Notes: a model not told the origin generated them from the letters alone. Shown: positions 19-62,490, counted from the stretch's first letter. The stretch is 64,000 nt of DNA from an uncultured Planctomycetota bacterium (GCA_963787325.1 CAWBCK010000001.1:156924-220923), one strand, 5' to 3'. Numbers and translations: made by a program.

Positions 19-1060
19 ATGAAGGCTATGGTGCTGACCGGTGTGCAACAGATGGAAATGCGGGATGTGCCGACTCCTTCCATCAATGACAACAAGGATG
101 TGCTGATCCGCATGGTACGGGTCGGCGTGTGCGGCTCGGATGTGCACTATTACACGCAAGGTCAGATCGGCTCGCAGGTCGTACAGTATCCCTTCGCCGT
201 CGGGCATGAGGGGGCGGGGATCATCGAGAAGGTTGGCCCTGCCGTGACCCGCGTCAAGGTCGGCGATCGTATCGCCATCGAGCCGGCGATGCCTTGCTGG
301 CAGTGCGACCAGTGCGTGGTGGGCCGGCCGCACACGTGCCGCAAACTCCGGTTTCTCGGCTGTCCCGGGCAGGCGGCGGGGTGCCTGTCGGAATACATGG
401 TGATGCCGGAAACGAGACTGCTTTCCCATCCCGGACAGCATGTCATTCGACCAGGCGGCGATCTCCGAGCCGCTGGCCATCGGCGTCTATGCCGTGAAGC
501 GATCAATTCCGATGAAGGGTGCTGCTGTGGGCATTCTTGGGGTCGGGCCGATCGGATTGAGCGTGCTGCTGCCTGCCAGGGCGCAGGGCGCCCGCAGCAT
601 TTTTGTCACGGATAAGATCGACGCCCGGTTGGCCCTTGCCCGAAAGGCTGGGGCGGACTGGACCGGCAACGTTGACTCCTGCGACGTGGTAGCTGGCATT
701 ACCGCGGCTGAGCCGGCGCCACTCGATGTGGTCTTCGAGTGTTGCGGCAAGCAGGAGGCGCTCGATCAGGCGATCAACCTGCTCAAGCCCGGCGGCAAGC
801 TGATGCTTGTGGGTATTCCGCCGACGCTGGAACGGGTTTCCTTCAAGATCGACGAGCTGCGGCACAAGGAGATCTGCATCCAGAACGTGCGCCGGCAGAA
901 CCACTGCGTGCAGCCTTCGCTCGATATGATCGCTCGCGGGGACTTCAACGTCGATGTCATGGTCACGCATCGGTTCCCGTTCGCCGAGACCAAGGCCGCC
1001 TTTGACCTGGTGGCTGAGTACAAGGACGGTGTGGTCAAGGCGATGATCGATTTCGAGTAG
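19..1060 (+). CDS. Zn-dependent alcohol/polyol dehydrogenase (MDR family, sorbitol-dehydrogenase-like); apparent frameshift near 415-440
   Basis: N-terminal ORF 19..615 carries the GHEGAG and C-x2-C Zn-ADH motifs. ORF 440..1060 carries the Rossmann GVGPIGL motif and the C-terminal half. The frames join as ...CFPIPDSMSFDQAAISEPL, which is typical for this family. Confidence 0.8.
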
Positions 1061-1157
1061 GGTTTCTACACCGAAACATGGCGGTGGGCCGTGTAGAAGG
1101 TTTTTCCGCAGGATGACGTCTTCCTGACAGATGACCACGCTTCATTTTGGATCACGG

Positions 1158-3991
1158 TTACAGTCTGTGGATGCGGGTCCTGACGTCGAACTCTGCGTGG
1201 CTGTCGTTGTGAGCGAATCTGACAGCAACGCCGGCCGGAGCGTTGATCGCGACGTTGAGTGTCTTGCCGTCCACCTGCCAGGAGACCTCCAGCAGACCGC
1301 GGACGGTCGCGACCGTGCCTTTCGCATGGGAGAGACCGCAGAGCCGGGGACTGATCACGTAGCGGGTCCCCCCTGCTGCGACCTGGTGAATTCCGAGAAT
1401 CACGCGAGGCAGGAAGTGCAGCGGCGTGGCTGACCAGGCGTGACAGTGGCTGCGAGTCAGCGTGCCTTTGGGCCAGATCGGGCTGCACGGGAAGGTTTCC
1501 CACACAGTGGTGGCGCCGGCTTCGAGCATGGGCTGATAGTCCCGGATAATTGTCTGTACTATCCGCTCAGAATGTCCTGCCTTTTCGAGGGCTTCGAAGT
1601 AATACATCATGGCAAAGCCGCTGCCTATGCCGGCCACGCCGTCGGGCGGATCAAGCATGTTTCGCAGCGCTCCTGCCTGCTGGCGGGGGCCGGCGATGTC
1701 ATACAGGATCGACAGGAAACTTGTGTGCTGGCTGACATTGGGGCTTGGCGTGCCGTCGGCGCGGATGGCGTCGGGATATCCCTGGCGAGCATCATCCCAG
1801 TGGCTGTTGACGGCACGGCGGAGTTTGCGGCTGAAGTTGCGCAGCCAGACCCTGTCCTGGTCGCGCCCCAGGACGTCAGCGCACTGCGAAGCGGCTTCGA
1901 TCGCGCCGACCAGGAACATACTGTTGTGCAGCACGGTTGCGTGGTTCTGGTCGAGGGCCGCCCAGTCGAACATGTTCCAGAAGGGGGCGCTGAACAGGCC
2001 GGCATCGGTGCAATAGCCATGGGCATTGCGAAGGTTCTTCATAACGGCTGGCCAGCACCGGCGAAGAAACGGCTTGTCGCCCGAGTAGAAGTAGTAATCC
2101 CAGACGCTGATGCCCCACAGGAAGCTCCAGGCGGGCAGGAGGCAGTCCCAGCAGGAGGGAACCTGGCAGCCGACGAGCGGATAGCGTTCCAGCGATTGAG
2201 CCGCCAGGCGGATGCATCGTCTGGCGATATCGAGTGCCCCGAAGGTGGGGAAGGCGAATACCGCCTCGTTCCGGGCATCTCCCACCCACAGGGTCTGCTC
2301 GTAGACGGGGCAATCGGTGAAGGTGTCCTCCATACAGAGTTTCAGCGTGCGTGCGGAGATCTCCCAGATGCGATCGAGGTTCGCGTCGCTGCACGTGAAG
2401 CTGCCCGCGTAATTCACGGGGTAGGTGGATTCGATCAGCCTGAGGAGGCGGATCTTCACCGGGCTCGTCATGTTGCGCAGCGTGACGAATATGTACCGGC
2501 CGCCGCGACGGGTGAAGGACGTATATCGGTTGAGTCCCGCGCGGGTGACGAAACGCATGCCGTTGTGGTTGCCGCGAGTGTGCTGCACCGTCCCGTCCGG
2601 GCTGATGTACTCGACGCCGAAGAGATCGACCTGCACGCCTTCGTCCGCGAGCAGTTCGAAGTCGTAGTAGCCGCAGCTTCTGCTCGCCGAGATCGCAGAC
2701 CAGTTCGATGTCGCCGGTGCTGCTGGGTCTGATGACGGTCATTTCGGCGTTGTCGTGCATCAGGGCCGCAGGATTGTCGACGAGCAGCTTCGGCCTTTCC
2801 GATAACCTGGCGATTCTCGAACTGCCAGTGGGTGTGGCGGACGAACATCTTACTTGCCGGTATGCAGCGGGCCCGTTCGCCCAGATCCGCAAGGAAGGTC
2901 GGCACATCCACCACGTGCCGGCCAAGCTGCTCCGCGGCAAGGCGGTAGGATGAGACGGGGCTGCGTTCGGCGCCGGCATGCTTTGACCAGACAAGATCGT
3001 CCTCGACGCGGGCGAATTCGGGGAACGGAATGAAGCACCAGGGATTGTCAAACGACTTGTCCAGGGGGTTCTCGAGCGTCAGGCCCCTGGGCACATCGCG
3101 CAGATGGATCGCCTTCTCGCGGTAGTGATAGTTGATCTTTTCCACCGTTGCCAGCAGCAGGTGTCTGCCGGCTTGGAGTGTGACCTTGCCCGGCTTGATG
3201 TGCCGGCCGTCGATCGCGACGCGGAAGGCCCCTTCAATGCCGAACGTCGACCGTTTCCTGAGGTGCAGAACGGTGGCCATGCCTGCCGGGACGAGGGTGT
3301 TGGAGTTTGCTTCAATCAGGCCGGGATGAACCACCTGGCCCGAGGCCAGACAGAAGTACAGGTCGCTCGGGCGCCGCACGACGTTTGCTGCCAGCAAGGA
3401 CTTGAACTCAAGCGGACGGCGAGTCATCAGGGCCACATCGCGCGGATGCAGGTCGTGCCACGGGCCCTTGTCGGCCGCGAACAGCTCAGCCGCTGGACGG
3501 TAGCGGGGCTTGCCTTCCAAGGTCGCGTCGTAGTATTCGGATGGGCCCATCTGGGGGCTGATCTTGGCCGTGCCGGGCAGCATGGCTGCCAGCGTCGCCA
3601 CACGCCAGCGGCGGTCTGTCACGATAGTCTGGCTCGTGCCGCCAGCCAGTTGAACGTCGAGCTGGGCAATCAGCCCCGCTTGTTGGGGACGCTGGTGGAA
3701 GGTCCCGGTGCCGTAGTACATCGCGGCGATCTCGATCTCATTGGGGCCTGGCTGCAGATGCGTGGTGACATCGAGGAGGTCGTACTGGTAGTGCTCCGGC
3801 CAGGCGCGGCAGGGTCCGTCACCGACCCATTGGCTGTTGATCCGTAGCCGATAGAAGCTATCAGCCGTGATCCGCATGAGGGCCTGTCGAAACGGCTTGA
3901 GGGCGAACTGCCGTCGGGCCACTATAGTGTCATGGTACGTGTTATAGTCGGGCCGGGGGCACCAGATCCATTTGGCGGTAGAGGTAATCAT
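1158..3991 (-). CDS. alpha-L-rhamnosidase (GH78); frameshift near 2640-2700
   Basis: ORF 2468..4246 has the GH78 N-terminal domain (MITSTAKWIW...). ORF 1158..2636 has the catalytic (alpha/alpha)6 region with a DCPxxEQxxWxGD motif. The two ORFs overlap and are collinear in homology. Confidence 0.8.
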
Positions 3992-4315
3992 CGGGGCAGT
4001 ATAGCCAGGCGCCAGACGCCAGCCAACGGGCAGAGACCGCCGGCACAACAGAGAAGCGCACCGCATGAGTGCCGGAGAAGGTGGCTGATCTCCGCAGGCC
4101 GCGTAACACCCGCTCTGCGGAAGCCGCCATGGGTCCTTGCGGGAGGAATTGAAGCATGGCAACATGTTGATGTCGGGCGCGCTTTGAACCTTGCACGGAC
4201 GGGCCGGCTGTCCTTGTCGGCGGACGTCTGCGTATCGGGGATGCATGACGGATTGGGGGGCTCAGGAAGCACGGAACAACCGGCAACGGTTTCTTGAGCG
4301 GGCTTTTGGCAGGGC

Positions 4316-38113: not shown

Positions 38114-39826
<1,713 letters not shown>

Positions 39827-40330: not shown

Positions 40331-41977
<1,647 letters not shown>

Positions 41978-41989
41978 TAAAGCATGCCA

Positions 41990-42148: not shown

Positions 42149-43354
42149 GTGGCAACGAAACGAGATTACTACGAAGTTCTGGGCGTGGCACGCTCGGCTG
42201 GGCCGGACCAGATCAAGAAGGCATACCGGCAGGCTGCGCTGAAATATCATCCCGACCGCAATCGCAACGATCCCGAGGCCGAGAAGAAGTTCAAGGAAGC
42301 CGCTGAGGCCTACGAGGTCCTGTCCGACGAACACAAGCGGGCCATCTACGACAAGTATGGTCATGCGGGTCTGAGCGGGCAGGGGGTGCATGACTTTTCG
42401 TCGATGAACCCGTCCGACATCTTTTCGATGTTCGGGCTGGACAGCATCTTCGACGCGTTCTTCGGCGGTCGGGGCGGCCGGCCTCGCCAGCACCGCGGCG
42501 CGGACCTGGAAGTCGGCGTCGAACTCGAACTGGAAGAGGTGATCACCGGCGCGGAACGGGCGGTCGAGTTCGACCGGGCCGATTTCTGCGATCATTGCGG
42601 CGGCCGAGGAGCAGAGCCGGGCACACCGCTGCAGACGTGTCAGACGTGCGGTGGCTATGGGCAGGTGGAGCAGGCGGCTGGTTTCGGTGGGCTGCTGGGA
42701 CGGATCGTAACGACGTGTCCGAACTGTCGCGGGACGGGCAAGATCGTCAAGGAACGCTGCCGGACGTGCAGCGGCCGCGGCATGAAGATGCAGCATCGGC
42801 AACTGCAGGTGCGTTTGCCGGCGGGCATCCATGACGGCCAGAGCGTTCGGATCCGGGGCGAGGGTGAGCCGAGCGAGGACGGCGGGCCGCGAGGGGATGT
42901 CTACTGCCGAGTGCGTGTCAAGCCGCATCCGTTCCTGCAACGGCATAACAATGACGTGGTGCTTCGCCTGCCGATCAGCTTCACGCAGGCGACGTTAGGG
43001 GCGGAACTTGAGGTGCCGACGCTTCGGGGCAAGTCGAAACTGACGATCCCGCATGGCACGCAGTACGGCGAGACGTTCCGCATGAAGGGCGAGGGCCTGC
43101 CCGATCTGCACAGCAAACGGGTAGGTGACCAGATCGCCCAGGTCATCGTCGAACTGCCTCGAAAACTCACCAAACAACAGGAAAGATTACTTAGGGAATT
43201 CGCCGAGACCGAGGATGACCAGGTCATGCCGGCAGCCAAGGGCGTCATGGACAGGATCAAGGATATCTTCAGCGGCACGAGCCATGAGCATCACGGTCAT
43301 CACGGCACGGACGAATCGGCCGAGCGGCAGGACCTGGACCGGTCAGACGTCTAG
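42149..43354 (+). CDS. dnaJ: molecular chaperone DnaJ
   Basis: J-domain with HPD, G/F-rich region, 4x CxxCxGxG zinc finger, C-terminal domains. Confidence 0.95.
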
Positions 43355-52411: not shown

Positions 52412-52606
52412 CTTCGCATCTCCAGGGAGAGAGCCCCAGGACTTCACGGCCATGACCGGTGACGGTTGCTGACGCCAGCCGCCGCGCTCGCCGCAAAACA
52501 AGGTCTTACGCGAATGCCGATGGGTCTGCAAGGGAATGGCCGCCTCTCGGGGTAATCGGACGAATCGGAACATCCGCCCTCGGGCCGGTGGCCATTGTGG
52601 ATGTGC

Positions 52607-54972
52607 TCAGTCCAGACCTATGGCTTCGACGCGGATATTCTTTACGCAGGCATGGATGGCCTTCAGCAGTGCTTCCGGCGGGGATGTCTTGGCCACGTAC
52701 GCGCAGAGCGCCCGCGGGGGACATCTCGTCGGCGATGTCCTGCTCGGCGTGCATCGACAGGCCGATCACCTTCACCTGCGGTATCTCCCGCCGGATTCGT
52801 CGCGTTGCTTCCGTACCGTTGAGCACCGGCATGGATACATCCATAATGACGATCTCCGGCCGCAGTTGGCGGGTAAGATCGACGGCTTCCTGGCCGTCGG
52901 CGGCCTGCCCAACGACCTCGACGCACGGATGCATCGCCAGCAGTTTGGCCAGGCCGTCGCGCACCACGGCATGATCGTCGGCCAGAAGAAGGCGAATCCG
53001 CTTGGAGTCATGCTTATTGCCTGCGGTAGCCGACTCACCGGTTGCTTCCGGAGTACCTGAAGGTTGCGATGCGGAGTCCCCCGTCGCCTCTGCTTCGGCT
53101 GGTGCTTCCAGTTCCACGGGCGCCAGCAATGTGATGTGTGTACCCATGGCGGGAGTGCTTTCGATTGCCAGCCGGCCGCCCAACCATTCCAGTCGCTCTC
53201 GCAGGCTGAGCAGGCCGAAACCCGTGCCGTGATGCTTGAGGGCCTGGCTCCTGTCCGGATCGAACCCTGCCCCCTCGTCGGCGACCGAGATCTGTACATG
53301 GTGTTCGCCAGCCTTGGTCAGCGTTACCGCCGCGCGGTCCGTCTTGGCATGCTTGACGACGTTAAAGAGCAACTCGCGGACGGCCTGGAACAGCAGCACC
53401 CGGACTTCCTCGGCCTCTGGATTGGCGTGTTCATCCGCGTGGACCTCGACGGCAAGGCCATGCTTGTCGCGCATCCAGCGAGCCAGCCAGTGCAACGTCT
53501 GGGCCATGCTTGCCTGGTAGAGGATCGGCGGCGACAGTTCGATCGTCAGCGAACGCGACAGTTCCAGCGATTCATCGAGCAGACCGTTAACCTGCCGCAA
53601 CGATTCGCGGACGCTGTCGTCCCACAGACTGGCTGCGGATCGTGTCGATATTGAACTTCGCACCGACGAGTAACTGCTGGAGTTGATCGTGCAGGATCTG
53701 GGCCAGACGGTGACGCTCCCGCTGCTCGGCCTGGCTCAGTTCGGCCGCCATGGCACGCAGCTGGGTGGTACGCCGGGCGACCTGCCGTTCAAGCGTCTCG
53801 TTCATCGACTTGAGCTGCTCTTCGGCGCGCTTGCGGTCCGTGATGTCGTGCGTGGTTTCAAGCACATATTGCCGGCCCGTGCCATAGCGCACCATGGCCA
53901 GCCGACTTTCGACCATGATTCGCCGGCCATCGGCGGTCTGGTGGTACAACTCGCCCGTCCATCGCCCGGTTTCGAGCAATGCTGCTCGGAAGTCCGTGGT
54001 CGTGGCAGACGTGCTGGTCTTGAGCAGGTCACGCGGCATGCGATCGACGGCTTCTCTGCGCGAATATCCGTACAACTGCTCGGCTCCACGATTCCAATAG
54101 ACGATGGGCCCGTCGAACTCCCACACGAAGATGGCATCATATGTCTGCTCCAGCAGGTCTACCTGTCGCCGCAGGGTCTCTTCCGACCGCTTGCGTTCGC
54201 TGATGTCCACGATGGAAGCCAGGACGAGAATGCCTTCGTTCGTACGGATGGGGTTCAGGCCGATCTCGACAGGCACCTCCGTGCCGTTCTTATGCAGTCC
54301 GAAAAGCTCCCGACCGGCACCCATGGGCCGCGTCTGCGGGTCGGCCATGAAGCCGTGGCGGTAGCCCTCATGCCTGCCGCGGAAACGTTCCGGAACGAGC
54401 ATCTCCACGGATTGGCCGATCAGTTCCTTCCTTTCGTAGCCGAACAGCTTCTCGGTCTGTGCGTTGACCAGCACGATGCGTCCGCGCGCGTCGGTCATGA
54501 TGATCGAATTGGGTGCCGATTCGACGGCGAGCTCCAGCCGCTGCTGGCTGTCGGCCAGATGTTGCTCGGCCTGCCTGCGGGCGGTGACGTCCAGCGTGAT
54601 TCCTATCAGTCGGGAGGAACTGTCATTTCTATCAGGAGACGGTCGGCCCTGGACGGCAATCCATCGCCGCCGGCCTTCTACAACGCCAGCCGTACGGTAT
54701 TCGGTCTCGAAGACGCTGCCGTCAGCCTGGCAGGCATCCCGAATAGCGTGATCGACGCGATCGCGGTCTTCTGGGTGTACGCTGGCCAGAAAGACTGCGT
54801 AATCGCATGCTGAATCATGGGAAAGGCCGTGCTGATCGCGGGCCTGTTCCGAGAGTCTCGCGTAGCCGGTCTGCGGACTCAACGCAAAGGTGCCCAGTTG
54901 TGCGGCTTCGACAATTTGCCGCAATCGGTCATATGGGGGGTGTCCTCGCTGCTCGCCCCCTGAGTTGCTCAT
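52607..54972 (-). CDS. hybrid sensor histidine kinase/response regulator (3x PAS - HisKA_3 - HATPase - REC); frameshifts near 53630 and near 52700
   Basis: PAS repeats. H-box ERHRLAQILHDQLQQ (NarX-type). HATPase G-boxes. REC domain (LLADDHAVVRDG...IMDVSMP). An alternate frame restores the C-terminus ...AYVAKTSPPEALLKAIHACVKNIRVEAIGLD*. Confidence 0.8.
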
Positions 54973-55661
54973 AAAGGATCTCCTGCAGGCGAGCTCTTAG
55001 AGCACCTGGCTGCTGTGCCGAAACCAGAACCGCCTGTCGATAACGAAACATGTGCCAAAGCCCCGAACGGATGCCTTGTCAACGCACGCTATATGGTAGG
55101 CGGCGCATCGGTTAAGACGTCAGCCGATGCGATACCATCTGTCCCGGTGTCGGGATGTCGACGGACAATTCATCACGATAGTGTCCAATAGCCGGGCTGT
55201 AGCCGGCGGGCCGACTGCGTCCGGGAGGCCGGCCTGGTCTCCTCGATCAATACGATGTGCGTCTTGGCCTTGGGCCCCTATTTCCAGGTAAGGGTTTACT
55301 GTAATGAAACCGACCCGAAGTCTGCCGATGTATGATGTGCATCCGCCAGCAATCTGCGCCCAGTCATCTCTCGCCCTTATACTTGGGTCATGAAGATCCG
55401 ACGCCTTTCCAGTTGCAGCAGTCTGCTTGGCCGTACGTCAATTCATTCGCTCACGAATCGCAGCAACTTGAAACGCCTTCGGCCCGATTAGTAGTGTTTG
55501 TCATGGGCGGGGTACACCGCGGAACCAACTGTCAGACGTTTATGACACGCGGCCCCGAGCTGCATATGTGGCATCCTGTAACGCCCTGGCGGTCGTGATC
55601 GTTTATGGCAGCGATGACACGACGAATGCGTACCAAGGCATTGCGGTTGTTGGGGGTTACC

Positions 55662-57137
55662 ATGAGAAGTTTTGCGTTCTTGCGGTGGTTGCCAGCAGCA
55701 GGCCTGCTGGCGGGCAGTAGCCTTCCTGGTTTCTCTTGGGGTTCTCGAACGGCGAACAGGGCTCAAGCAGTTACCGGAGCCGCTGTCGGGCATACCGCAG
55801 CGGCGCTGGCGCTCAGCCGCGACATCAACGGCGATGGAACAGTCGACGTCGCCGACCTGAATCTGATGATTGCGGCCTGGGCCGGCACTGCCAACCCGTT
55901 AACCAGCAACTGGAACGCAGCCGCCGATCTCAACGGGGATGGCGACGTCAACGTGGCAGACTTGCAGATCCTTGCGAATTACTGGGACCAGAGCGTTCCG
56001 ATCGACGTGACCGTCATCAAGGATCCACTGGGCGACAGCGCTGATTATTCGGGCAACGTCGTCGGCAAGGTCTACGTCCCATCGCGATACGGTGGCCAGC
56101 TCGACCATCAGCGGCGCGGATGTTGAACTGATCTATACAAACGGTGCCGATCTGCAGCCTGTTGTCGCCCAACGCGCCTTTGATGGTGATCTCGCCGCGT
56201 CCGTCGTGGCGCAGGGCGATCCGTGTTCCTATACCGTCCCACAAGGCCAGCCCGGCTGGTACTACATACGCCTGCCCGACACCTCACCGGTGACGATCTC
56301 CAGCAGACTACACCGAGGACGAGCAGGCCACGTACCGGCCATGGAACGGCTGGTGGTGGCCATGGAATCCCAGCCAGGGCCCGACCTTGTATGATGCCGG
56401 CGGGCCTCTCGACAAGTATGACCGGATCTATGGCACGCAGGCCCGCCAGTGGGACGCGACCAACGAATCCGGTGGCGACTACTGGTTCGGCCATTGCTGG
56501 GGATGGTCGATCGCCTCGATCCTGCTTCCCTTACCGCAACCCGCAAAGAAAAACGGCGTCGACTTCACTATGGACGACATGAAAGGTCTGTACACCGAGG
56601 CCGCCGACAACGATCCGTATGTCGATCCCACCCTTAGCGTAAGCTTCATCCCGCCAGGACCGCCGACCAGCAAGGCCGGCGAGGACGTCGACGACTATTG
56701 TGACGATCTATACCGGATCCTTCGCACCTGCATCCGCGAAGATGGTGTGCCCGTCCAAAGCGACATGCGCGCCATCGCCACGCCGCCGGACAACGAAAGC
56801 GAGGTCTGGAACCAGGCGATCTATAGGTACGCCTCCAGTTGCGCGAGGTGCCAGGGGCAAACGACGAGCATCTCGTCGAGATCGACATGGACGTGTACTC
56901 AAACTTCGGCCCATGGCCGCCGCCGACCGATTACACCGACGACCGCCACGAGGAATTCGTCTACGATCTGGAGTTCGACGCTGATGGGCAGGTCGTGGCA
57001 GGCTCTACCAGACAGAACTGGATCAGCGCCAGCCACTATCCGCCGCACGATCTGTATCGCCTGACGGGTTCACCCTGGGCCTGCGCACCGATCCGTACGT
57101 CTCGAAAGACAATATCGATGCCCTGTACCAGCCGTGA
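55662..57137 (+). CDS. secreted protein A: signal peptide + dockerin-like repeats + conserved Cys/Trp-rich domain (GHCWGWS motif); about 3 frameshifts
   Basis: MRSFAFLRWLPAAGLLAGSS is the signal peptide. Two D-x-N-G-D-G-x-V-D/N dockerin Ca-binding repeats. The C-terminal ~380 aa are collinear with paralog B. The last 20 aa (…DPYVSKDNIDALYQP*) are recovered in an alternate frame. Confidence 0.65.
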
Positions 57138-57217
57138 GAGCAGTGGCGATCGCAAAACTCTGCTTTGTTGAGGATGTCGCCGGCAGCCTGGGCCAGGGCG
57201 AAGTTTTGAAACCGCTT

Positions 57218-57937
57218 CTACTGGGGCATGCCCTGCACCTTCTTGCCGTTGACCTCCAGCAGGGCCGCTTCCGTGACGAGCTTGCCATTGCGATACTTCT
57301 TTGCGACCAGCCACCAGGGCTGGCCGCTGACCCACTTCTGCTCGACCTTCATTTCGTAATTGCCGGATGCCTTGCTCAGCACTACCTGCCCGCCGCTTTT
57401 GCTGGTCTGGCTGATAGTCGCCTTGCCGGCCTCGCGTGTGCTGTCGGCTTGGCTGAAGTCCGGCCAGTCCAGCGGCACGAGACTTGGAACGTCACCGACG
57501 ATAGTCGGCCCCGAAGCGGCAGCCGAATACGTCCGCGTGGAATCTTTCGTCGAACCGTCCGGCCTTACGGAGACGTCTGTAATCTGCACGAGCCGCCCGG
57601 TATCCTTGGTGTAACAGGCGACAAACCGCCTCTGCACGCCCACCTGCTCGGGCGGATACGTGATCTGCACCTGCCAGCACGGTTTGTCACCGACCGTCGT
57701 TTCGCCGTTCACTTGAAAGTCGATGGTGACCACGCGGCCCTTCATCTTGTAAGTTCCCTGCGTGGCCGCGGCACTGCTGCCAGGCCGGAAGATCTGTCCC
57801 TGCCACACGCCGACCTTCCATGTGTCCCCGCTTGTCCACTGAGGCGCCGTCTGGGCCGCGGCGATCGCCGGCGCGCCGAGAAGAAGCCCCGTCAGTGTAC
57901 AGCCGACGATAACGACACGAATGCTGCATGACTGCAT
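57218..57937 (-). CDS. secreted hypothetical protein (239 aa), apparently co-transcribed downstream of paralog B
   Basis: AAGGAG RBS; signal peptide MQSCSIRVVIVGCTLTGLLLGAPAIAAAQ; no recognisable domain. Confidence 0.6.
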   Translation of the reverse strand: MQSCSIRVVIVGCTLTGLLLGAPAIAAAQTAPQWTSGDTWKVGVWQGQIFRPGSSAAATQGTYKMKGRVVTIDFQVNGETTVGDKPCWQVQITYPPEQVGVQRRFVACYTKDTGRLVQITDVSVRPDGSTKDSTRTYSAAASGPTIVGDVPSLVPLDWPDFSQADSTREAGKATISQTSKSGGQVVLSKASGNYEMKVEQKWVSGQPWWLVAKKYRNGKLVTEAALLEVNGKKVQGMPQ

Positions 57938-57970
57938 GGTAACACTCCTTAGTAGCCCCTACGGTCTCTA

Positions 57971-59830
57971 TCACGGTGAGTACAAGGCATCAACGTTCGT
58001 CTTCGTCACGTTCGGATTGTTCGCCGAATAGGACGAGCCGGTCAGGCGACTGAGATTCTCGGGAGGATAGTGGCTGGTGCTGATCCAGTTCTGTTTCGGC
58101 GATCCGACCAGTACCCGGCCCTGGCCGTCGAACTCCAGCTGGTAGATGTACTCCTCCCAGCGATCATCCGTGTAATCTGTAGGGGGCGGCCAGGGACCGA
58201 AGTTTGAGTAGAGGTCCATGTCGATCTCAACGACGCTCTCGTCGTCGCTGCCGGGTGCCTCATGCCAGCTGGAATAGTACCGGTAGATTGCCTGGTTCCA
58301 GACCTCCTCCGATTTGCTGGGCGGGTCGGCGATAGCCCGCATGTTGCTCTGGACCGGCACGCTGTCTTCACCGATACAGGTGTGAATGATGCGGTAGACG
58401 TCGTCGCAATAGCCGTCAATGTCCTCGCCGGCGTTTGGAGTCGGCGGACCGACCGGGATGCCGTACATGCTCAGTCCCTGGTCGACGTACGGCGCCGTAT
58501 CAGCCAGTTCGGTGTACAAACCCTTCATGTCGTCCATCGTGAAGTTGATGCCGTTCTTCGTCGTGCCCTGTGGTACCGGCACGAGGATCGAGGCGATCGA
58601 CCATCCCCAGCAGTGGCCGGACCAGTAGGTACCGCTCGACTTGTACTGCGCCTCCCAGGCGCGGGCCTGTGTTCCATAAACCTGGTCGTATTTGTCCAGC
58701 GGCCCGCCTGGGTCATACAGCGTAGGACCCTCGCTGGTGTTGAACGGCCACCACCAGCCGTTCCACGGACGGTAGGACGCTTGCCCCTCCTCGATATAGG
58801 TGCTGTCGATCGTGGCAGGCTGCTGCTGCACCAGGCGGATATAGTACCAGCCGGGCTGGCCCTGCGGCACGGTGTAGTGGCACGGGTCGCCCGCGGCGAC
58901 GACCGAACCTTCCAGCATGCCGAAATACACCTGTCCCGCCACCGCCGGTGTCAGGTCTCCGCCGCCTGTATAGATCAACTCGACGTCGGCCCCGCTGATC
59001 GTCAGCTCCCCGCCGTATGCCGATGGAACGTACACCTTGGCAACCTGCGAGCCGCCCACGTCCGTGCTGTAGCCCAGCGAGTCCTTGACGATCTCGGTAG
59101 GCGGCGGTGCCGCATCGACCGTCAGGCTCGCCGTAGCTGTTGCAATAGCCCCTTCATTATCCGTTGCTGTAAAAACAATGGCGAAGGTGCCGGCGCTTGC
59201 CGGGGTAACGCTGTCCGAAAAGGTCCATAGGTCTTCCTCGTTGTCGTCCTGCGTCAGCTCCTGGTCGGCGGCGCCGCCGACCGGCGACAGATCGACGGTC
59301 ACAGAGATCACGGTGCCGTCCGGGTCCGTGGCATTGGCTGACACGGCGATATCGCCGCCGATATTGCGTACGAGCTCGGCGGCTACATCCGCATTACTGA
59401 TCTCTGGCGGCTCATTAAGGATGGCAGGAGCGACGTCGACGTCTATGTCAGCCGTCGATGACATGCCGCCCACTGCCTGCGCGGTGATGATCACCCGCAC
59501 CGGCCCGCTGACCTGCGGATTGACGGTGCCGGTCCAGGTGAAGACGTTGTCGTCGCCCTCGAGCATCGCCGCCGCCGCTTGCCCGCCGACTTGGGAGAGG
59601 TCCACGAAGACAACGGGCGTCGAGCCGTCGGCGTTCGTGACCGTCGCGCTGACGGTGACGGTCGCGGGCTCCAGCTGTGTCAACGTGCCGTCGAAAACGG
59701 GATCAGCGATTTCTGGAGCGATGACACTGATGCCTTCGACAACACCAGTAGTGCATCCGCCAAGCCAGTACAGACATGTAGCAACGAGGAGTCCCCCGGC
59801 CACCCGCCTTACCCATATGCACAGGTTCAT
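57971..59830 (-). CDS. secreted lipoprotein B: lipobox signal + two Ig-like repeats + conserved Cys/Trp-rich domain (GHCWGWS motif)
   Basis: MNLCIWVRRVAGGLLVATCLYWLGGC contains the lipobox LGGC. Two ~90-aa beta-rich repeats. The C-terminal domain shares long blocks with A (KVYVPSxYGGxLTISGADVELIYT, PQGQPGWYYIRL, YRPWNGWWWP, GHCWGWSIASIL, FTMDDMKGLYTE, NFGPWPPPTDYTDDR, QNWISxSHYPP). Intact 619 aa. Confidence 0.75.
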   Translation of the reverse strand: MNLCIWVRRVAGGLLVATCLYWLGGCTTGVVEGISVIAPEIADPVFDGTLTQLEPATVTVSATVTNADGSTPVVFVDLSQVGGQAAAAMLEGDDNVFTWTGTVNPQVSGPVRVIITAQAVGGMSSTADIDVDVAPAILNEPPEISNADVAAELVRNIGGDIAVSANATDPDGTVISVTVDLSPVGGAADQELTQDDNEEDLWTFSDSVTPASAGTFAIVFTATDNEGAIATATASLTVDAAPPPTEIVKDSLGYSTDVGGSQVAKVYVPSAYGGELTISGADVELIYTGGGDLTPAVAGQVYFGMLEGSVVAAGDPCHYTVPQGQPGWYYIRLVQQQPATIDSTYIEEGQASYRPWNGWWWPFNTSEGPTLYDPGGPLDKYDQVYGTQARAWEAQYKSSGTYWSGHCWGWSIASILVPVPQGTTKNGINFTMDDMKGLYTELADTAPYVDQGLSMYGIPVGPPTPNAGEDIDGYCDDVYRIIHTCIGEDSVPVQSNMRAIADPPSKSEEVWNQAIYRYYSSWHEAPGSDDESVVEIDMDLYSNFGPWPPPTDYTDDRWEEYIYQLEFDGQGRVLVGSPKQNWISTSHYPPENLSRLTGSSYSANNPNVTKTNVDALYSP

Positions 59831-60187: not shown

Positions 60188-60736
60188 TCATCCTGCGTGC
60201 CGACCGCGCTTGCGCCTCTTGCGGTTCAGTACGACGATCGTTGCCCCCAGGACGACCATCGACGCATTGCCCCCCAGATGCCCCCAACTGACCGCCCCGT
60301 CTTTGCCGAAGCAGCCGCACTGGATCTCCAACTCCCAATACAGCGCCCAGCCGATGGCCCCAAGGAATACGAGGGAAAGGGCAGTCAGAATGCCGATCGA
60401 TTCAACGATCCATATTCCTGTGGCCGCCAGACCTGCTGCGCAGATCTCCAGCCACGGCAGCACGATGGCCATTGGATGCACCAGCCACCAGGGAGCGAGA
60501 TGATAGTTGCGTATCTGCCCGGCCAGAAGGGCAGGATCGCCGATCTTGCGCAGGCCGGCATAGAGGAACACGGCCGCAATCACCCATCTGGCCAGCCTTG
60601 TCGCCCATGACAATGCACGTTGGCGGCCGGTCATGCCCCCGCTGACCGCAAGCGTTTCCGTTCGCACATGGTCTGCGATGTTGGCTTGCCCCTGCGGCAA
60701 TGATCCATAGTGCTCGCTGTTCATGCCGTCTGTCAT
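60188..60736 (-). CDS. MauE/DoxX-family membrane protein
   Basis: 4-TM protein (MauE-like) downstream of the rhodanese gene. Confidence 0.7.
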   Translation of the reverse strand: MTDGMNSEHYGSLPQGQANIADHVRTETLAVSGGMTGRQRALSWATRLARWVIAAVFLYAGLRKIGDPALLAGQIRNYHLAPWWLVHPMAIVLPWLEICAAGLAATGIWIVESIGILTALSLVFLGAIGWALYWELEIQCGCFGKDGAVSWGHLGGNASMVVLGATIVVLNRKRRKRGRHAG

Positions 60737-60797
60737 GATCTGTCACGCAGAAGTCGCCCGTTCGCAGCCCGATCCGGGCTCCGTGGGCGTGTCCCTG

Positions 60798-61280
60798 TTA
60801 CCTTGCGGCGGTCTCTATCTCCATGCCCGCCTTGCGCCAATCGTACCATCCTGCCAGATAGAGTCTCAGGTGTGTGAAACCCGCCTCTCTAAGCAGGTCG
60901 AATACCTCTCGGCTGTCTTCACAATCCGATCCCCCGCAATACACGATCACCTCGTCGGTCGGCGTGGCGTAACTGTAAACCTTTTTAATGTCGGCCGGCT
61001 CGCCATCCGCACTGGCGGGCATGGCGATGCTCCCGGGGATGTGTCCCTGCAGGTAGGCTTTCTCCGGCCGCGCGTCGATCAACACCGCGCCCCGGCCGAT
61101 CGCGTCGATCACGCCGCTGCGATCGATGGCCGCGGCCAGCTGTTCGGGTGTCGGCTGCGGATAGACCGCTTGGCGCGGAACATACCAGGCGATCCCGTTG
61201 GGCCGTATGGCATTGACTGTGGCAGCCAGTCCGCCGGCCACCGTCACTATGGTCGCTATGCGCAATACATATCCCATCAT
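60798..61280 (-). CDS. rhodanese-domain sulfurtransferase (membrane-anchored)
   Basis: N-terminal TM; active-site loop VIVYCGGSDCEDS (Cys-x5). The ATG overlaps the upstream stop (ATGA). Confidence 0.8.
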   Translation of the reverse strand: MMGYVLRIATIVTVAGGLAATVNAIRPNGIAWYVPRQAVYPQPTPEQLAAAIDRSGVIDAIGRGAVLIDARPEKAYLQGHIPGSIAMPASADGEPADIKKVYSYATPTDEVIVYCGGSDCEDSREVFDLLREAGFTHLRLYLAGWYDWRKAGMEIETAAR

Positions 61281-62490
61281 CGTCCCTGCGTTGCCGGCCC
61301 TGGTCGGTGCAGGGTTCGCAGCCGTATCCGTTCGCCACTGGCCGGCAGCATGCTGGGCTGCGTGGCGGGTGTTCTACTCGGCCGATGCAGCCTGCGGCCG
61401 AAACGGAACGGCCTGAGCCTTGCGATGAAGGTCGGGTGCTGTGGACTGTCCGTTGAGACGGTCACCGTCGCGCCCGCCGGCGGCAATGCGGCCTCTGCCG
61501 GCACGGTAATCCATATCTGGTATTCACTGCCCTCGGCCAGTCTGTCGACCTCGACGTGAACGTCCTTGCTGGAAGGCTCTACACCGGTGACATGAATCGG
61601 CGTACCATCGTTGCTCTTCAGCGTGATCCTCCGGTGAAACGGCTCTTCGAGTGGCTGGGGCACCAGCAGCGTTGTCGGCTGAAGCACGATGCGAGGCCGC
61701 ACGTAGCCGTAGACATACACCGCAAGTTCCGGCATCTCCTTCAGGCCCGTCGCCAGAATGACTTTGCTGCGCAGGGCCCCTTCCGGTAGCGGCGGAACTG
61801 TTTCCACGGTAAGCGCATACTTGTGGCCGACCTCGATCGTTTTGAGATCAGCCTTGAGCGACTTGCTGTCGACCCTGGGGGCGTGCAGATCCACCGGCTC
61901 GTCCAGATTGCTGGTGATCGTGACGGTGCGCTTGGCCGGCTTGCTGCGATTGGGCGCGCCGAAGTTGACGCTGCGGGCCGGACTGATCGCGAACCGCAGC
62001 CGGATCTCGCCTTCAATGCTAAAACGTACGTTCGGCTGGCCCGGGTCGTCGGTTTGGATGACGATCGGTTTGTGGAGCTTGCCTGCGCCTCCCGGTCGTG
62101 TCGATCTTGACGTCGATCTGCCATGTGGCTCCCGCGGCAACCGTCTTATCCCATTTGCCGACCGTTGTGCAGCCGCAGCTCGGTGTGTACGCTGCGAATC
62201 GCCAGCGGCTTGTCTGCCGTGTTGACCAGTTCGAACGTGTGCGTGATGGTGTCGCCGGCCCACACCTTGCCGATGTCATACTTCGATTCTTTCACGCGGA
62301 TGTGCGAAACCAGCGGCCTGGTCGCCAAAGGTTGCGTCGCCGGACTCGGCCGCGACGCCGGGCTGGTCTGACTGGCGGGAGCTGCCAGGATGGCGATAGC
62401 CATGGCGCGGCTGACAAAAAGACTTCCGGCCACTGTTGCCAATACCACGGTAGCTGAAACATTGCCGATGGTCAGACCCTTCTGTCGCAT
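61277..62490 (-). CDS. DUF1573 domain-containing secreted protein; 2 frameshifts (near 62150 and 62100)
   Basis: Signal peptide. DUF1573 motifs: DIGKVWAGDTITHTFELVNTADKPLAI...CGCTTVGKWDKTVAAGATWQIDV across two frames. The C-terminal beta-rich region is in ORF 61277..62263. The stop overlaps the rhodanese start. Confidence 0.65.

What the first reader, a model, noticed from the sequence alone, without database searches (positions are those of the whole stretch)
55662..59830. Paralogous secreted modular proteins sharing an unrecognised Cys/Trp-rich domain (GHCWGWS / WNGWWWP), one dockerin-tagged, one Ig-tagged lipoprotein, with a co-transcribed small secreted protein
Gene A (55662..57137, +) and gene B (57971..59830, -) are convergent paralogues. 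Their C-terminal ~380 aa are collinear, sharing long identical blocks (KVYVPSxYGGxLTISGADVELIYT, PQGQPGWYYIRL, YRPWNGWWWP, GHCWGWSIASIL, FTMDDMKGLYTE, YCDDxYRI, EVWNQAIYRY, NFGPWPPPTDYTDDR, QNWISxSHYPP). Their N-terminal targeting modules differ: A has dockerin-type Ca-binding repeats, while B has a lipobox and two Ig-like repeats. The invariant G-H-C-W-G-W-S resembles the transglutaminase/papain-type active-site context (GQCWVFA / CGSCWAFS), so a thiol-dependent hydrolase or transferase fold is conceivable. However, I could not place a conserved His/Asp or His/Asn in the canonical order, so this may be a new domain family. B is followed after 33 bp by a strongly translated (AAGGAG RBS) 239-aa secreted protein (57218..57937). 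That protein is a candidate partner such as a substrate, inhibitor or immunity protein. This is the least explainable block in the window.
Basis: partly seen in the sequence, partly recalled or inferred. Interest (0 to 1): 0.75.

Follow-up and report, generated by a model that had tools for sequence, protein, structure and literature searches.

The report
GP42-like cysteine enzyme plus immunity partner
The "unrecognised" domain is a distant bacterial relative of the Phytophthora GP42 transglutaminase, and it always travels with a small exported protein that is most likely its dedicated inhibitor or immunity factor; that pairing was not found in the searched literature or curated family libraries, and one of the two enzyme copies in this window is broken by frameshifts.

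Summary
Gene B (57971..59830, -) is intact. It has a lipobox, two Ig-like repeats, a PPC-like beta-sandwich and a C-terminal catalytic core. Gene A is a real dockerin-tagged paralogue, but it is not an open reading frame: four frame breaks interrupt it.

The clade differs from GP42 in having its conserved His before the Cys, not after it. H406, C407, D472 and N512 are 95-98% conserved across about 150 members, so it looks like an active thiol enzyme. The clade is large (1,545 cluster representatives), mostly Planctomycetota.

The 239-aa downstream protein belongs to a new family with no match in Pfam or NCBIfam. It lies directly after the enzyme gene in 12 distinct gene contexts. In relatives whose enzyme lacks a signal peptide and sits beside VgrG, Hcp or PAAR genes, the partner still carries a lipoprotein signal. 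That favours an enzyme-inhibitor (effector-immunity) cassette over enzyme-substrate. No biochemistry has been done.

The parts
57971..59830 (-). Gene B: intact 619-aa exported modular enzyme (signal/lipobox, two Ig-like repeats, PPC-like sandwich, GP42-like catalytic core)
   Evidence: ORF list; 100% identical to P0001 on a 406 kb public contig
59753..59830 (-). Lipoprotein-type signal peptide of B (residues 1-26, lipobox LGG-C26)
   Evidence: PROSITE-like lipobox pattern match; close homologues also have a Cys after the hydrophobic region
59426..59716 (-). Ig-like repeat 1 of B (about residues 39-135)
   Evidence: 36% identical to repeat 2, E 4e-10
59111..59416 (-). Ig-like repeat 2 of B (about residues 139-240)
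   Evidence: Pfam Big_9 E 5.6e-5, 24.4 bits vs cutoff 23.6
58781..59095 (-). Beta-sandwich resembling PPC / collagen-binding domains (about residues 246-350), conserved N-terminal to the catalytic core; no counterpart in the recovered 3TW5 sequence, where only about 35 residues precede the first shared motif
57974..58780 (-). GP42-type (TGase_elicitor-like) papain-fold catalytic core of B (residues 351-619)
58610..58615 (-). Codons of H406-C407, the predicted catalytic His(-1)/Cys pair; C407 aligns with GP42 Cys290
   Evidence: G405 100%, H406 97%, C407 98% conserved in about 150 members; alignment to 3TW5 S128 (the C290S mutant)
58265..58303 (-). Segment equivalent to the Pep-13 elicitor of GP42 (B residues 510-522, VWNQAIYRYYSSW vs VWNQPVRGFKVYE)
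   Evidence: Pep-13 sequence from PMC9879208; W511 96% and N512 95% conserved
57218..57937 (-). Partner gene: 239-aa exported, predicted all-beta protein; member of a family with no match in Pfam or NCBIfam that always follows the enzyme gene; proposed cognate inhibitor / immunity protein
   Evidence: No Pfam or NCBIfam hit; only 4 close homologues, each downstream of an enzyme gene; family found downstream in L006-L009, L033, L086/87, L090 and L091, marginally in L010
57945..57951 (-). Shine-Dalgarno-like TAAGGAG, 7 nt upstream of the partner's ATG, within the 33-nt B-partner spacer
   Evidence: Read directly from the sequence
55662..57137 (+). Gene A: dockerin-tagged paralogue of B, disrupted by four frame breaks (pseudogene or assembly error); frame-corrected product 490 aa
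   Evidence: tblastn frames 2>3>1>3>2; stitched protein keeps GHC, D, VWNQ and is 69% identical to intact P0002 and to B; dN/dS vs B 0.17-0.19
55821..55982 (+). Dockerin type I domain of gene A
   Evidence: Pfam Dockerin_1 E 3.4e-12, 46.8 bits vs cutoff 22.9
56103..56103 (+). Frame break 1 in gene A (+1: extra G between ..GGQL and TISGAD..)
56305..56308 (+). Frame break 2 in gene A (AGAC, 4 nt where 3 are expected)
56840..56841 (+). Frame break 3 in gene A (TG where the TGG Trp codon is expected; -1)
57082..57089 (+). Frame break 4 in gene A (8 nt where 9 or 6 are expected)

Best explanation
The conserved region of about 380 aa is a PPC-like beta-sandwich followed by a papain-fold catalytic core of the GP42 (Phytophthora 'transglutaminase elicitor', PF16683, PDB 3TW5) type.

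Proposed chemistry (inferred): it is an active thiol enzyme. Cys407 sits at the N-terminus of a helix and attacks a gamma-glutamyl/amide carbonyl to form a thioester. That thioester is then resolved by an amine (transglutaminase cross-linking) or by water (amidase, deamidase or peptidase). His406 (one residue before the Cys, where GP42 has it one residue after), Asp472 and Asn512 (the N of the Pep-13 'VWNQ' motif) complete the catalytic site.

Proposed organisation: variable N-terminal modules place or deliver the enzyme. These are lipobox plus Ig repeats in B, dockerin in A, and LysM, MAM or PKD in relatives. The co-transcribed 239-aa exported protein is its cognate inhibitor ('immunity' protein). 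It would bind the enzyme in the periplasm and protect the producer's own envelope, so the pair works as an effector-immunity (toxin-antitoxin-like) cassette. The likely target is the cell envelope or peptidoglycan of bacteria.

Gene A is a second, partner-less copy that is inactivated in this assembly.

Shown: fold, motif alignment, residue conservation, operon adjacency, and T6SS context in relatives. Inferred: catalysis, inhibitor role, and target.
For: Fold:
- AF2 model has pLDDT 92.1 and pTM 0.89.

Sequence:
- PF16683 is hit by 15 of 27 homologues (best E 1.5e-6), and by P0119 above Pfam's own cutoff (32 vs 25 bits).
- P0119 aligns to the 3TW5 sequence across the active site, E 0.036.
- The anchored alignment shows PWNGWWWP/PWAGPYWP, DKYDQVYG/EKYAKAFG, WSGHCWGWSIASIL/WFGICHAWSPAAIL, EEVWNQ/AEVWNQ and YIYQLEFDGQG/YYYLLELDDAG.

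Catalytic-type conservation: G405 100%, H406 97%, C407 98%, D472 95%, W511 96%, N512 95%.

Partner:
- It lies immediately downstream (from a short overlap to about 300 nt) in 12 distinct gene contexts, sometimes in tandem arrays: 2 copies in L008, 3 in L009.
- It diverges faster than the enzyme in every pair (enzyme/partner identity 62/50, 66/47, 42/35, 40/24, 39/21, 47/34%).
- The catalytic domain is C-terminal in 98 of 108 complete proteins, behind very varied N-termini.

Injection-system context in relatives:
- Enzymes without a signal peptide sit next to VgrG (L090 and the P0022 contig), PAAR (L087 E 1.6e-26; L090) or an Hcp fusion (L091).
- Their partner keeps a lipoprotein or signal sequence. 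Enzyme and partner would then meet only in a recipient's periplasm.
Against: - In this window B has its own lipoprotein signal plus Ig repeats, and A has a dockerin. These modules suggest retention on the producer's surface, not delivery to a rival.
- No T6SS genes were seen among the window ORFs scanned.
- The immunity inference is transferred from relatives whose enzyme domain is only about 34-37% identical, and whose partners are detectable only by profile (E 1e-9 to 1e-18).
- No binding or inhibition evidence exists. The partner model is poor (pLDDT 56) and matches no known immunity fold.
- The Isosphaeraceae subclade has no detectable partner.
- The partner is rich in Gln (19) and Lys (16), so it could be a transglutaminase substrate.
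- The only characterised family member, GP42, is a wall-associated cross-linking enzyme of the producer itself.
- The His is at -1, not +1, so the catalytic geometry may differ from GP42. I could not inspect model coordinates.
Confidence: 0.55

Rival explanations
1. Enzyme plus substrate. B is a surface-anchored transglutaminase that cross-links the co-secreted 239-aa protein (or cross-links it to envelope proteins or peptidoglycan), building a covalently stabilised surface layer or matrix on the producer. This parallels GP42 in the Phytophthora wall and Tgl in Bacillus spore coats.
For: GP42 is a wall-associated Ca2+-dependent transglutaminase (PMC9879208, PMC9105555). B has a lipobox and Ig repeats, and A has a dockerin, both of which are surface-retention modules. 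The partner has 19 Gln and 16 Lys and an invariant Gln near the predicted signal-peptide cleavage site. Tandem partner paralogues (L008, L009) could be structural subunits.
Against: In the relatives linked to VgrG, PAAR or Hcp, the enzyme lacks a signal peptide while the partner is a lipoprotein, so the two are in different compartments in the producer. The partner evolves faster than the enzyme. The partner is absent from the large Isosphaeraceae subclade, although the enzyme is conserved there.
Confidence: 0.2
2. Enzyme plus accessory factor. The partner is a chaperone, a lipoprotein-sorting (LolA/RseB-like) factor or an activation factor needed for export, folding or surface display of the enzyme. 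It is neither an inhibitor nor a substrate.
Against: The partner model has pLDDT 56, so the fold matches are unreliable. An export chaperone does not explain partner arrays, or a periplasmic lipoprotein partner for a T6SS-context enzyme that never enters the producer's periplasm through Sec.
Confidence: 0.1
3. Gene A is actually intact and functional. Its four frame breaks are assembly or sequencing errors, so the organism has two working enzymes, one dockerin-tagged and one Ig-tagged lipoprotein.
For: Other genes in the window are also frame-broken. The DUF1573-like gene has two breaks relative to its intact L001 orthologue. The hybrid kinase is split. The GH78 rhamnosidase is split. Frame-corrected A has no in-frame stops, keeps all conserved residues, has dN/dS 0.17-0.19 against B, and has GC3 0.76 like B (0.78).
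Against: Four breaks within about 1 kb is far denser than elsewhere. At least 9 kb of neighbouring genes are intact (GH38, MFS, HD, B, partner, MauE, rhodanese). None of the breaks lies in a homopolymer run of 3 or more bases. A has no partner gene of its own, unlike its intact dockerin-type relative P0002 in L003-5, which fits decay.
Confidence: 0.4
4. The domain is a catalytically dead binding or structural module that merely retains a papain-like shape.
For: Pfam scores are below threshold for B. The His position differs from GP42.
Against: Conservation of the G-H-C motif is near-total, and D472 and N512 are also conserved, in about 150 divergent members. Inactive homologues usually lose such residues.
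Confidence: 0.03

Closest known systems
GP42 Ca2+-dependent transglutaminase of Phytophthora sojae (PDB 3TW5; Pfam PF16683 TGase_elicitor; source of the Pep-13 plant immune elicitor)
   Different: Identity is only 19%, and B scores below Pfam's cutoff. The conserved His is at Cys-1 (G-H-C) instead of Cys+1 (I-C-H). There is an extra N-terminal PPC-like beta-sandwich. The proteins are bacterial and modular (lipobox/Ig, dockerin, LysM...). They are paired with a dedicated downstream partner protein. Activity is untested.
T6SS papain-fold, cell-wall-targeting effector-immunity pairs (such as Tse1/Tsi1 and the Tae/Tai families; from general knowledge)
   Same: A Cys-dependent papain-fold enzyme is followed directly by a small exported or lipoprotein partner. 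Relatives of B sit beside VgrG, Hcp and PAAR and carry LysM, with PG_binding_1 neighbours.
   Different: The catalytic domain is GP42-type, not NlpC/P60/CHAP-type. The window copy is exported by Sec as a lipoprotein, and no T6SS genes were seen nearby. The partner family has no match to known immunity families.
Staphopain-staphostatin and SpeB-Spi operons (papain-like cysteine proteases co-transcribed with a specific beta-rich inhibitor; from general knowledge)
   Different: Staphostatins are cytoplasmic, about 110 aa, and unrelated in sequence. Here the partner is exported and about 210 aa when mature, and the enzyme is GP42-type.
Tox-TGase and other papain-like toxin domains of polymorphic toxin systems (Zhang et al. 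2012, PMC3482391)
   Same: The toxin-type catalytic domain is C-terminal behind variable N-terminal trafficking modules, and an immunity-type gene lies immediately downstream.
   Different: Tox-TGase is the classical C-H-D transglutaminase core. GP42-type domains and this partner family are not described there.

Membership tests
GP42 / TGase_elicitor superfamily (PF16683, PDB 3TW5) | Three-dimensional fold of the catalytic core | tested here: met
GP42 / TGase_elicitor superfamily (PF16683, PDB 3TW5) | Score above Pfam's gathering threshold for PF16683 | tested here: not met
   B scores 19.7 bits full-length and 21.1 bits for the domain alone, against a cutoff of 25. 15 of 27 homologues hit at E<0.01. 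P0119 passes (32 bits), but 9 of 10 distant members give no hit. So this is a sister clade, largely outside the curated model.
GP42 / TGase_elicitor superfamily (PF16683, PDB 3TW5) | Nucleophile Cys (GP42 Cys290) at the N-terminus of the core helix, within W-x-G-x-C-x-x-W-S-x-A-x-I-L | tested here: met
   B C407 aligns with S128 of the C290S crystal construct. The helix starts at model residue 168, which is C407. The Cys is 98% conserved.
GP42 / TGase_elicitor superfamily (PF16683, PDB 3TW5) | 'CH' motif: catalytic His immediately after the Cys (PMC10318531) | tested here: not met
   B has W at +1, and that position varies across the clade (W, L, D, G...). His is at -1 in 97% of members. Only 3 of about 140 motifs counted also have His at +1.
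GP42 / TGase_elicitor superfamily (PF16683, PDB 3TW5) | Pep-13 segment (VWNQPVRGFKVYE), required for GP42 transglutaminase activity according to the literature | tested here: met
   B has EEVWNQAIYRYYSS on the equivalent beta-strand. V-W-N-Q is identical, W511 is 96% and N512 95% conserved, and the remaining residues have diverged (Pro5 becomes Ala).
GP42 / TGase_elicitor superfamily (PF16683, PDB 3TW5) | Acidic residue on a neighbouring non-core helix that pairs with the His | tested here: inconclusive
   D472 (95% conserved) lies at the start of helix 231-249 of the model and aligns within 2-3 residues of GP42's T-D-E-Y-G. No coordinates were available to measure contacts.
GP42 / TGase_elicitor superfamily (PF16683, PDB 3TW5) | Ca2+-dependent protein cross-linking (transglutaminase) activity | not testable with these tools
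   Needs biochemistry.
Classical transglutaminase core / papain C1 (Cys-His-Asp/Asn in canonical order) | His on the core beta-strand after the Cys helix, followed by Asp/Asn on the next strand | tested here: not met
T6SS effector-immunity pair | Genetic linkage to vgrG, hcp or PAAR | tested here: not met
   Window: none among the roughly 30 ORFs scanned, and B has its own lipoprotein signal. Relatives without a signal peptide: met in four contexts (L087/88, L090, L091, the P0022 contig).
T6SS effector-immunity pair | Small exported or lipoprotein gene immediately downstream of the effector | tested here: met
   33-nt spacer with an RBS in the window. The same family lies downstream in 12 distinct contexts.
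T6SS effector-immunity pair | Toxicity of the effector and neutralisation by the partner | not testable with these tools
   Needs expression experiments or at least a complex prediction.
Polymorphic toxin architecture | Catalytic (toxin) domain at the extreme C-terminus behind variable N-terminal modules | tested here: met
   The domain ends a median of 2 residues from the C-terminus in 108 proteins, and 98 of them have no more than 30 residues after it. Complete proteins are 126-2,087 aa long, and one hit reaches 2,646 aa. N-terminal modules include dockerin, Big_9, LysM, MAM, F5/8-C and PKD.
Dockerin type I (gene A N-terminus) | Pfam Dockerin_1 above threshold | tested here: met
   46.8 bits vs cutoff 22.9, E 3.4e-12.
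Bacterial lipoprotein (gene B) | Lipobox with invariant Cys after a hydrophobic region | tested here: met
   Pattern match VATCLYWLGG-C26. Lipidation itself is not testable here.
PPC / collagen-binding beta-sandwich | Fold similarity to pre-peptidase C-terminal or ColG/ColH collagen-binding domains | tested here: inconclusive

The most novel reading that the evidence does not exclude
This cassette could represent a previously undescribed bacterial effector-immunity system. The effector would be a GP42-type thiol enzyme with a relocated catalytic His (a His-Cys instead of a Cys-His dyad), delivered either by T6SS (LysM-type cargo beside VgrG, Hcp or PAAR) or by Sec as a lipoprotein or dockerin-tagged surface protein. 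It would be neutralised by a new family of exported beta-rich immunity proteins. The oomycete GP42 transglutaminase, and hence the Pep-13 plant immune elicitor, would then descend from this bacterial envelope-targeting toxin superfamily.
Probability: 0.45. Interest if true: 0.7.

Novelty: new variant of a known kind. Interest (0 to 1): 0.55.

Why it matters
GP42 has so far been an oddity. It is a structurally unique transglutaminase, known mainly from Phytophthora as the source of the Pep-13 immune elicitor, with a few Vibrio relatives noted. In the searched paper library, every article that mentions its Pfam family concerns oomycetes.

This work shows a large bacterial sister clade: 1,545 representatives of 50%-identity clusters, mainly Planctomycetota. 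It has a conserved but rearranged catalytic site. It also comes with a dedicated partner family that has no match in Pfam or NCBIfam.

If the effector-immunity reading holds, three things follow:
- A new enzymatic toxin class and a new immunity family would be added to the bacterial antagonism repertoire, including in Planctomycetota, where such systems are little studied.
- The GP42 fold would gain a plausible bacterial origin and an ancestral function.
- The VWNQ core of Pep-13 would be seen to be immutable because it is part of a catalytic site conserved across domains of life.

For this window specifically, the 'least explainable block' becomes one intact enzyme-partner operon plus one decayed paralogue.

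Tried and rejected
- Direct sequence searches of the domain, of two family profiles and of P0015 against PDB sequences found nothing relevant. Only P0119 reached 3TW5, at E 0.036.
- The AFDB library was unavailable.
- Exact-sequence contig look-ups failed for gene B, P0010 and P0011. Cluster look-up gave no names or accessions, so the source organism is inferred only from relatives, the nearest being Phycisphaerae MAGs.
- I tried to fetch GP42 homologues with the Pep-25 peptide. The first query was too short, and the padded query found no candidates. I instead recovered most of the 3TW5 sequence with an anchored chimeric query. The alignment between anchors (B residues about 446-508) is low-confidence.
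- A codon-position GC frame plot of the window was too noisy to count frameshifts. Homology to L001 proteins and split Pfam domains were used instead.
- The promoter/terminator scan gave nothing above the shuffled expectation.
- I looked for a different conserved downstream partner in 75 Isosphaeraceae-type loci and found none. The one cluster found looks like spurious high-GC ORFs.
- I considered the classical transglutaminase core and papain C1 and rejected both, because there is no canonical His.

Full report
OBSERVATION. Gene B (57971..59830, minus strand) is an intact 619-aa ORF. It is identical to a protein on a 406 kb public contig (P0001). Its N-terminus matches a lipobox (…LGG-C26), and residues about 39-135 and 139-240 are two Ig-like repeats, 36% identical to each other (E 4e-10). 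The second repeat hits Pfam Big_9. The 239-aa ORF (57218..57937, minus) starts 33 nt after B's stop, with TAAGGAG 7 nt upstream of its ATG.

Its similarity to B (54-70% identity over B residues 242-619) is real, but it is spread over five segments in frames 2>3>1>3>2. There are four frame breaks: an extra G at 56103; AGAC (4 nt for 3) at 56305-56308; TG for a TGG codon at 56840-56841; and 8 nt for 9 or 6 at 57082-57089. The first ORF (55605..56126) carries a dockerin (E 3.4e-12) and then stops. The public record likewise holds only a 225-aa fragment (P0018). The stitched product is 490 aa. It keeps every conserved residue, has no in-frame stop, and is 69% identical both to an intact dockerin-type relative (P0002) and to B. 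dN/dS against B is 0.17-0.19. The inactivation is therefore either recent or an artefact.

Frame breaks also occur in the DUF1573-like gene (two, relative to its intact L001 orthologue), in the hybrid sensor kinase and in a GH78 rhamnosidase 55 kb away. Many other genes are intact. I cannot decide between pseudogene and assembly error. The density in A (4 per kb, none at homopolymer runs of 3 or more bases) and its lack of a partner gene lean slightly towards real decay.

A more canonical family member, P0119, passes Pfam's cutoff (32 bits) and aligns to the 3TW5 sequence through the active site (E 0.036). An anchored query recovered most of the 3TW5 sequence and shows six collinear motifs:
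- PWNGWWWP / PWAGPYWP
- DKYDQVYG / EKYAKAFG
- WSGHCWGWSIASIL…KNGINF…DDMKGL / WFGI(C290S)HAWSPAAIL…HNGVTF…MDLKAL
- a shared YR on the next helix
- EEVWNQ / AEVWNQ
- YIYQLEFDGQG / YYYLLELDDAG

The fifth motif is the start of Pep-13 (VWNQPVRGFKVYE; PMC9879208). The missing canonical His is the published hallmark of GP42 (PMC10318531).

ACTIVE SITE. In GP42 the His follows the Cys ('CH'). It is reported to interact with an Asp on a nearby helix or an Asn on strand beta2 (PMC10318531). In this clade the position after the Cys is variable (W, L, D, G…), and the His is immediately before the Cys. Across about 150 members, G405 is 100% conserved, H406 97%, C407 98%, D472 95%, W511 96%, N512 95%, D382 90% and R498 87%. 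That is the pattern of an active enzyme. By alignment, the Cys, the Asn (in VWNQ) and probably the helix Asp correspond to the GP42 set. The relocated His is a real difference, and I could not evaluate its structural consequence without coordinates.

DISTRIBUTION. The word-indexed search found only 31 relatives. The exhaustive profile search found 1,545 cluster representatives at E<=1e-3, and 186 at E<=1e-30. In species-representative genomes there are 127 relatives. Almost all are Planctomycetota: Phycisphaerae are nearest at 40-47% identity, and Isosphaeraceae such as Singulisphaera, Paludisphaera, Tautonia and Aquisphaera are at about 30-35%. One Anaerolineales MAG and one Thermoplasmatota MAG also carry it. 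The catalytic domain ends within 30 residues of the C-terminus in 98 of 108 complete proteins. The N-terminal modules ahead of it vary widely and include dockerin, Big_9, LysM, MAM, F5/8-C and PKD, and the proteins reach more than 2,000 aa. NCBIfam has no model, and sources call these proteins hypothetical.

THE PARTNER. The 239-aa protein has a signal peptide, no Pfam or NCBIfam hit, and only four close homologues in 5.8 billion proteins. Each of those lies directly after an enzyme gene, whether Ig-type (L001/2) or dockerin-type (L003-5). A profile built from them finds the family immediately downstream of the enzyme in these loci:
- L006 and L009 (Phycisphaerae; L009 has three copies)
- L007
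- L008 (two tandem copies)
- L033 (Anaerolineales)
- L010 (archaeal MAG), marginally

It is not detectable next to Isosphaeraceae homologues. The partner always diverges faster than the enzyme.

The decisive context comes from the relatives that lack a signal peptide. In L087/88 the LysM-enzyme is followed after 18 nt by a 282-aa lipoprotein of the partner family (hmmsearch E 4.5e-12, hhalign probability 94%). The same gene string continues with PG_binding_1, DUF6931, PAAR (E 1.6e-26) and a weak Tlde1-like domain. L090 reads VgrG, LysM/PG_binding_1, a 1,067-aa LysM protein, PG_binding_1, enzyme, partner, PAAR. L091 reads Hcp-OmpA fusion, enzyme, partner lipoprotein (E 5.6e-18). The P0022 contig reads VgrG, PG_binding_1, enzyme, a 281-aa ORF, PG_binding_1. 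An enzyme with no export signal beside T6SS spike and tube genes, followed by a periplasmic lipoprotein, is the standard logic of an effector-immunity pair.

MECHANISM. Best supported (confidence about 0.55): a GP42-type thiol enzyme, either a transglutaminase or a gamma-glutamyl-directed amidase or peptidase, whose dedicated exported partner is its inhibitor/immunity protein. LysM and PG_binding_1 in relatives point to the cell envelope or peptidoglycan as the target. The window copy is a Sec-exported lipoprotein, not a T6SS cargo, and I saw no T6SS genes among the window ORFs scanned. The partner may therefore protect the producer during export or hold a surface enzyme in check. Precedents from general knowledge for such enzyme-inhibitor pairs are the staphopain-staphostatin and SpeB-Spi operons and the Tse1/Tsi1 effector-immunity pair.

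The rivals are as follows:
- Enzyme-substrate cross-linking (0.2). The GP42 precedent, the surface-retention modules and the Gln/Lys-rich partner favour it. The compartment mismatch in T6SS-context relatives argues against it.
- An accessory chaperone or sorting factor (0.1). The only support is weak LolA/RseB-like hints from a poor model.
- A dead binding domain (0.03). Residue conservation contradicts it.

KNOWN OR NEW. The fold and superfamily are known, so the 'new domain family' claim fails. Four things appear new relative to the literature I could search. PF16683 and 'transglutaminase elicitor' occur only in oomycete papers. Zhang et al. 2012 describe classical C-H-D Tox-TGase domains, not GP42-type ones.
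1. A large bacterial clade, mostly outside the Pfam model.
2. The His-before-Cys arrangement.
3. The fused PPC-like sandwich.
4. The dedicated partner family and its T6SS-linked relatives.

I rate this a new variant of a known kind.

LIMITS. There is no biochemistry and no complex model. I had no access to model coordinates. The alignment to GP42 between the anchors is approximate. The immunity inference for the window cassette is transferred from distant relatives. The status of gene A depends on read-level data that I do not have.

Noticed in passing
window 61280..62490 (-): The DUF1573-like gene upstream of B is frame-broken. It matches the intact 410-aa L001 orthologue in frames -2>-3>-1, which means two breaks near 62180 and 62092.
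   Followed up: partly
window 52506..54972 (-): A hybrid sensor kinase is split into a triple-PAS ORF (53587..54972) and a HATPase_c plus receiver ORF (52506..53663). The receiver match stops at position 93 of 111, and the tail looks out of frame, so there are at least one or two more frame breaks.
   Followed up: partly
window 1158..4246 (-): A GH78 alpha-L-rhamnosidase appears split into two overlapping same-strand ORFs: the N domain in 2468..4246 and the 6-hairpin plus C domains in 1158..2636. Frame breaks are therefore not confined to the region of the finding. Either the assembly is indel-prone or the genome carries many pseudogenes.
   Followed up: partly
window 60188..62490 (-); L001 7315..9536: The trio DUF1573-like, rhodanese, MauE/DoxX lies directly upstream of gene B on the same strand, in the window and also in L001/L002. 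It could be a periplasmic thiol/redox module relevant to a secreted Cys enzyme. It could equally be synteny between close relatives, since it is absent from the dockerin-type loci L003-5.
   Followed up: no
L003 4631..5965 (-), L004, L005: A FemAB-like/Acetyltransf_6 gene lies divergently upstream of the intact dockerin-type enzyme-partner cassette. From general knowledge, Fem-type enzymes modify peptidoglycan cross-bridges and can confer immunity to wall-targeting enzymes.
   Followed up: no
L090 1448..6111; L087 2966..3607; P0022 contig: In the VgrG/PAAR islands, each large cargo gene is preceded by a protein of about 209 aa with an N-terminal LysM-like segment and a C-terminal PG_binding_1 domain. 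The repeated small-gene/large-gene pattern looks like an adaptor-plus-effector arrangement. L090 also has a 1,067-aa LysM protein of unknown function in such a slot.
   Followed up: no
L010 (Thermoplasmatota archaeon MAG JAFGPP010000071.1) 944..2077 and downstream ORF: An archaeal MAG contig carries a family member (33% identity to B) followed by an ORF with a marginal partner-family hit (E about 1e-4 to 2e-3). This is either inter-domain transfer or a binning contaminant.
   Followed up: no
P0028-P0031; L011-L085 (Isosphaeraceae): The Isosphaeraceae subclade has GHCLGG instead of GHCWGW and an insertion of about 60 aa after the PWN motif. It also has a C-terminal tail of about 60 aa ending in GFFGFFRGR, and no detectable partner gene. 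It may work differently from the cassette-type enzymes.
   Followed up: partly
P0022-P0027 (alignment A1 columns ~918-1000): The LysM-type, T6SS-context enzymes carry an insertion of about 100 aa between the conserved Arg (R498 in B) and the VWN strand. It is absent from B and from GP42.
   Followed up: no
window 38114..39826 (+) and 40343..41980 (+): Two Cpn60/GroEL paralogues lie about 500 bp apart, followed by a DnaJ gene (42149..43354). The window is ordinary chromosomal sequence, not a mobile element.
   Followed up: no
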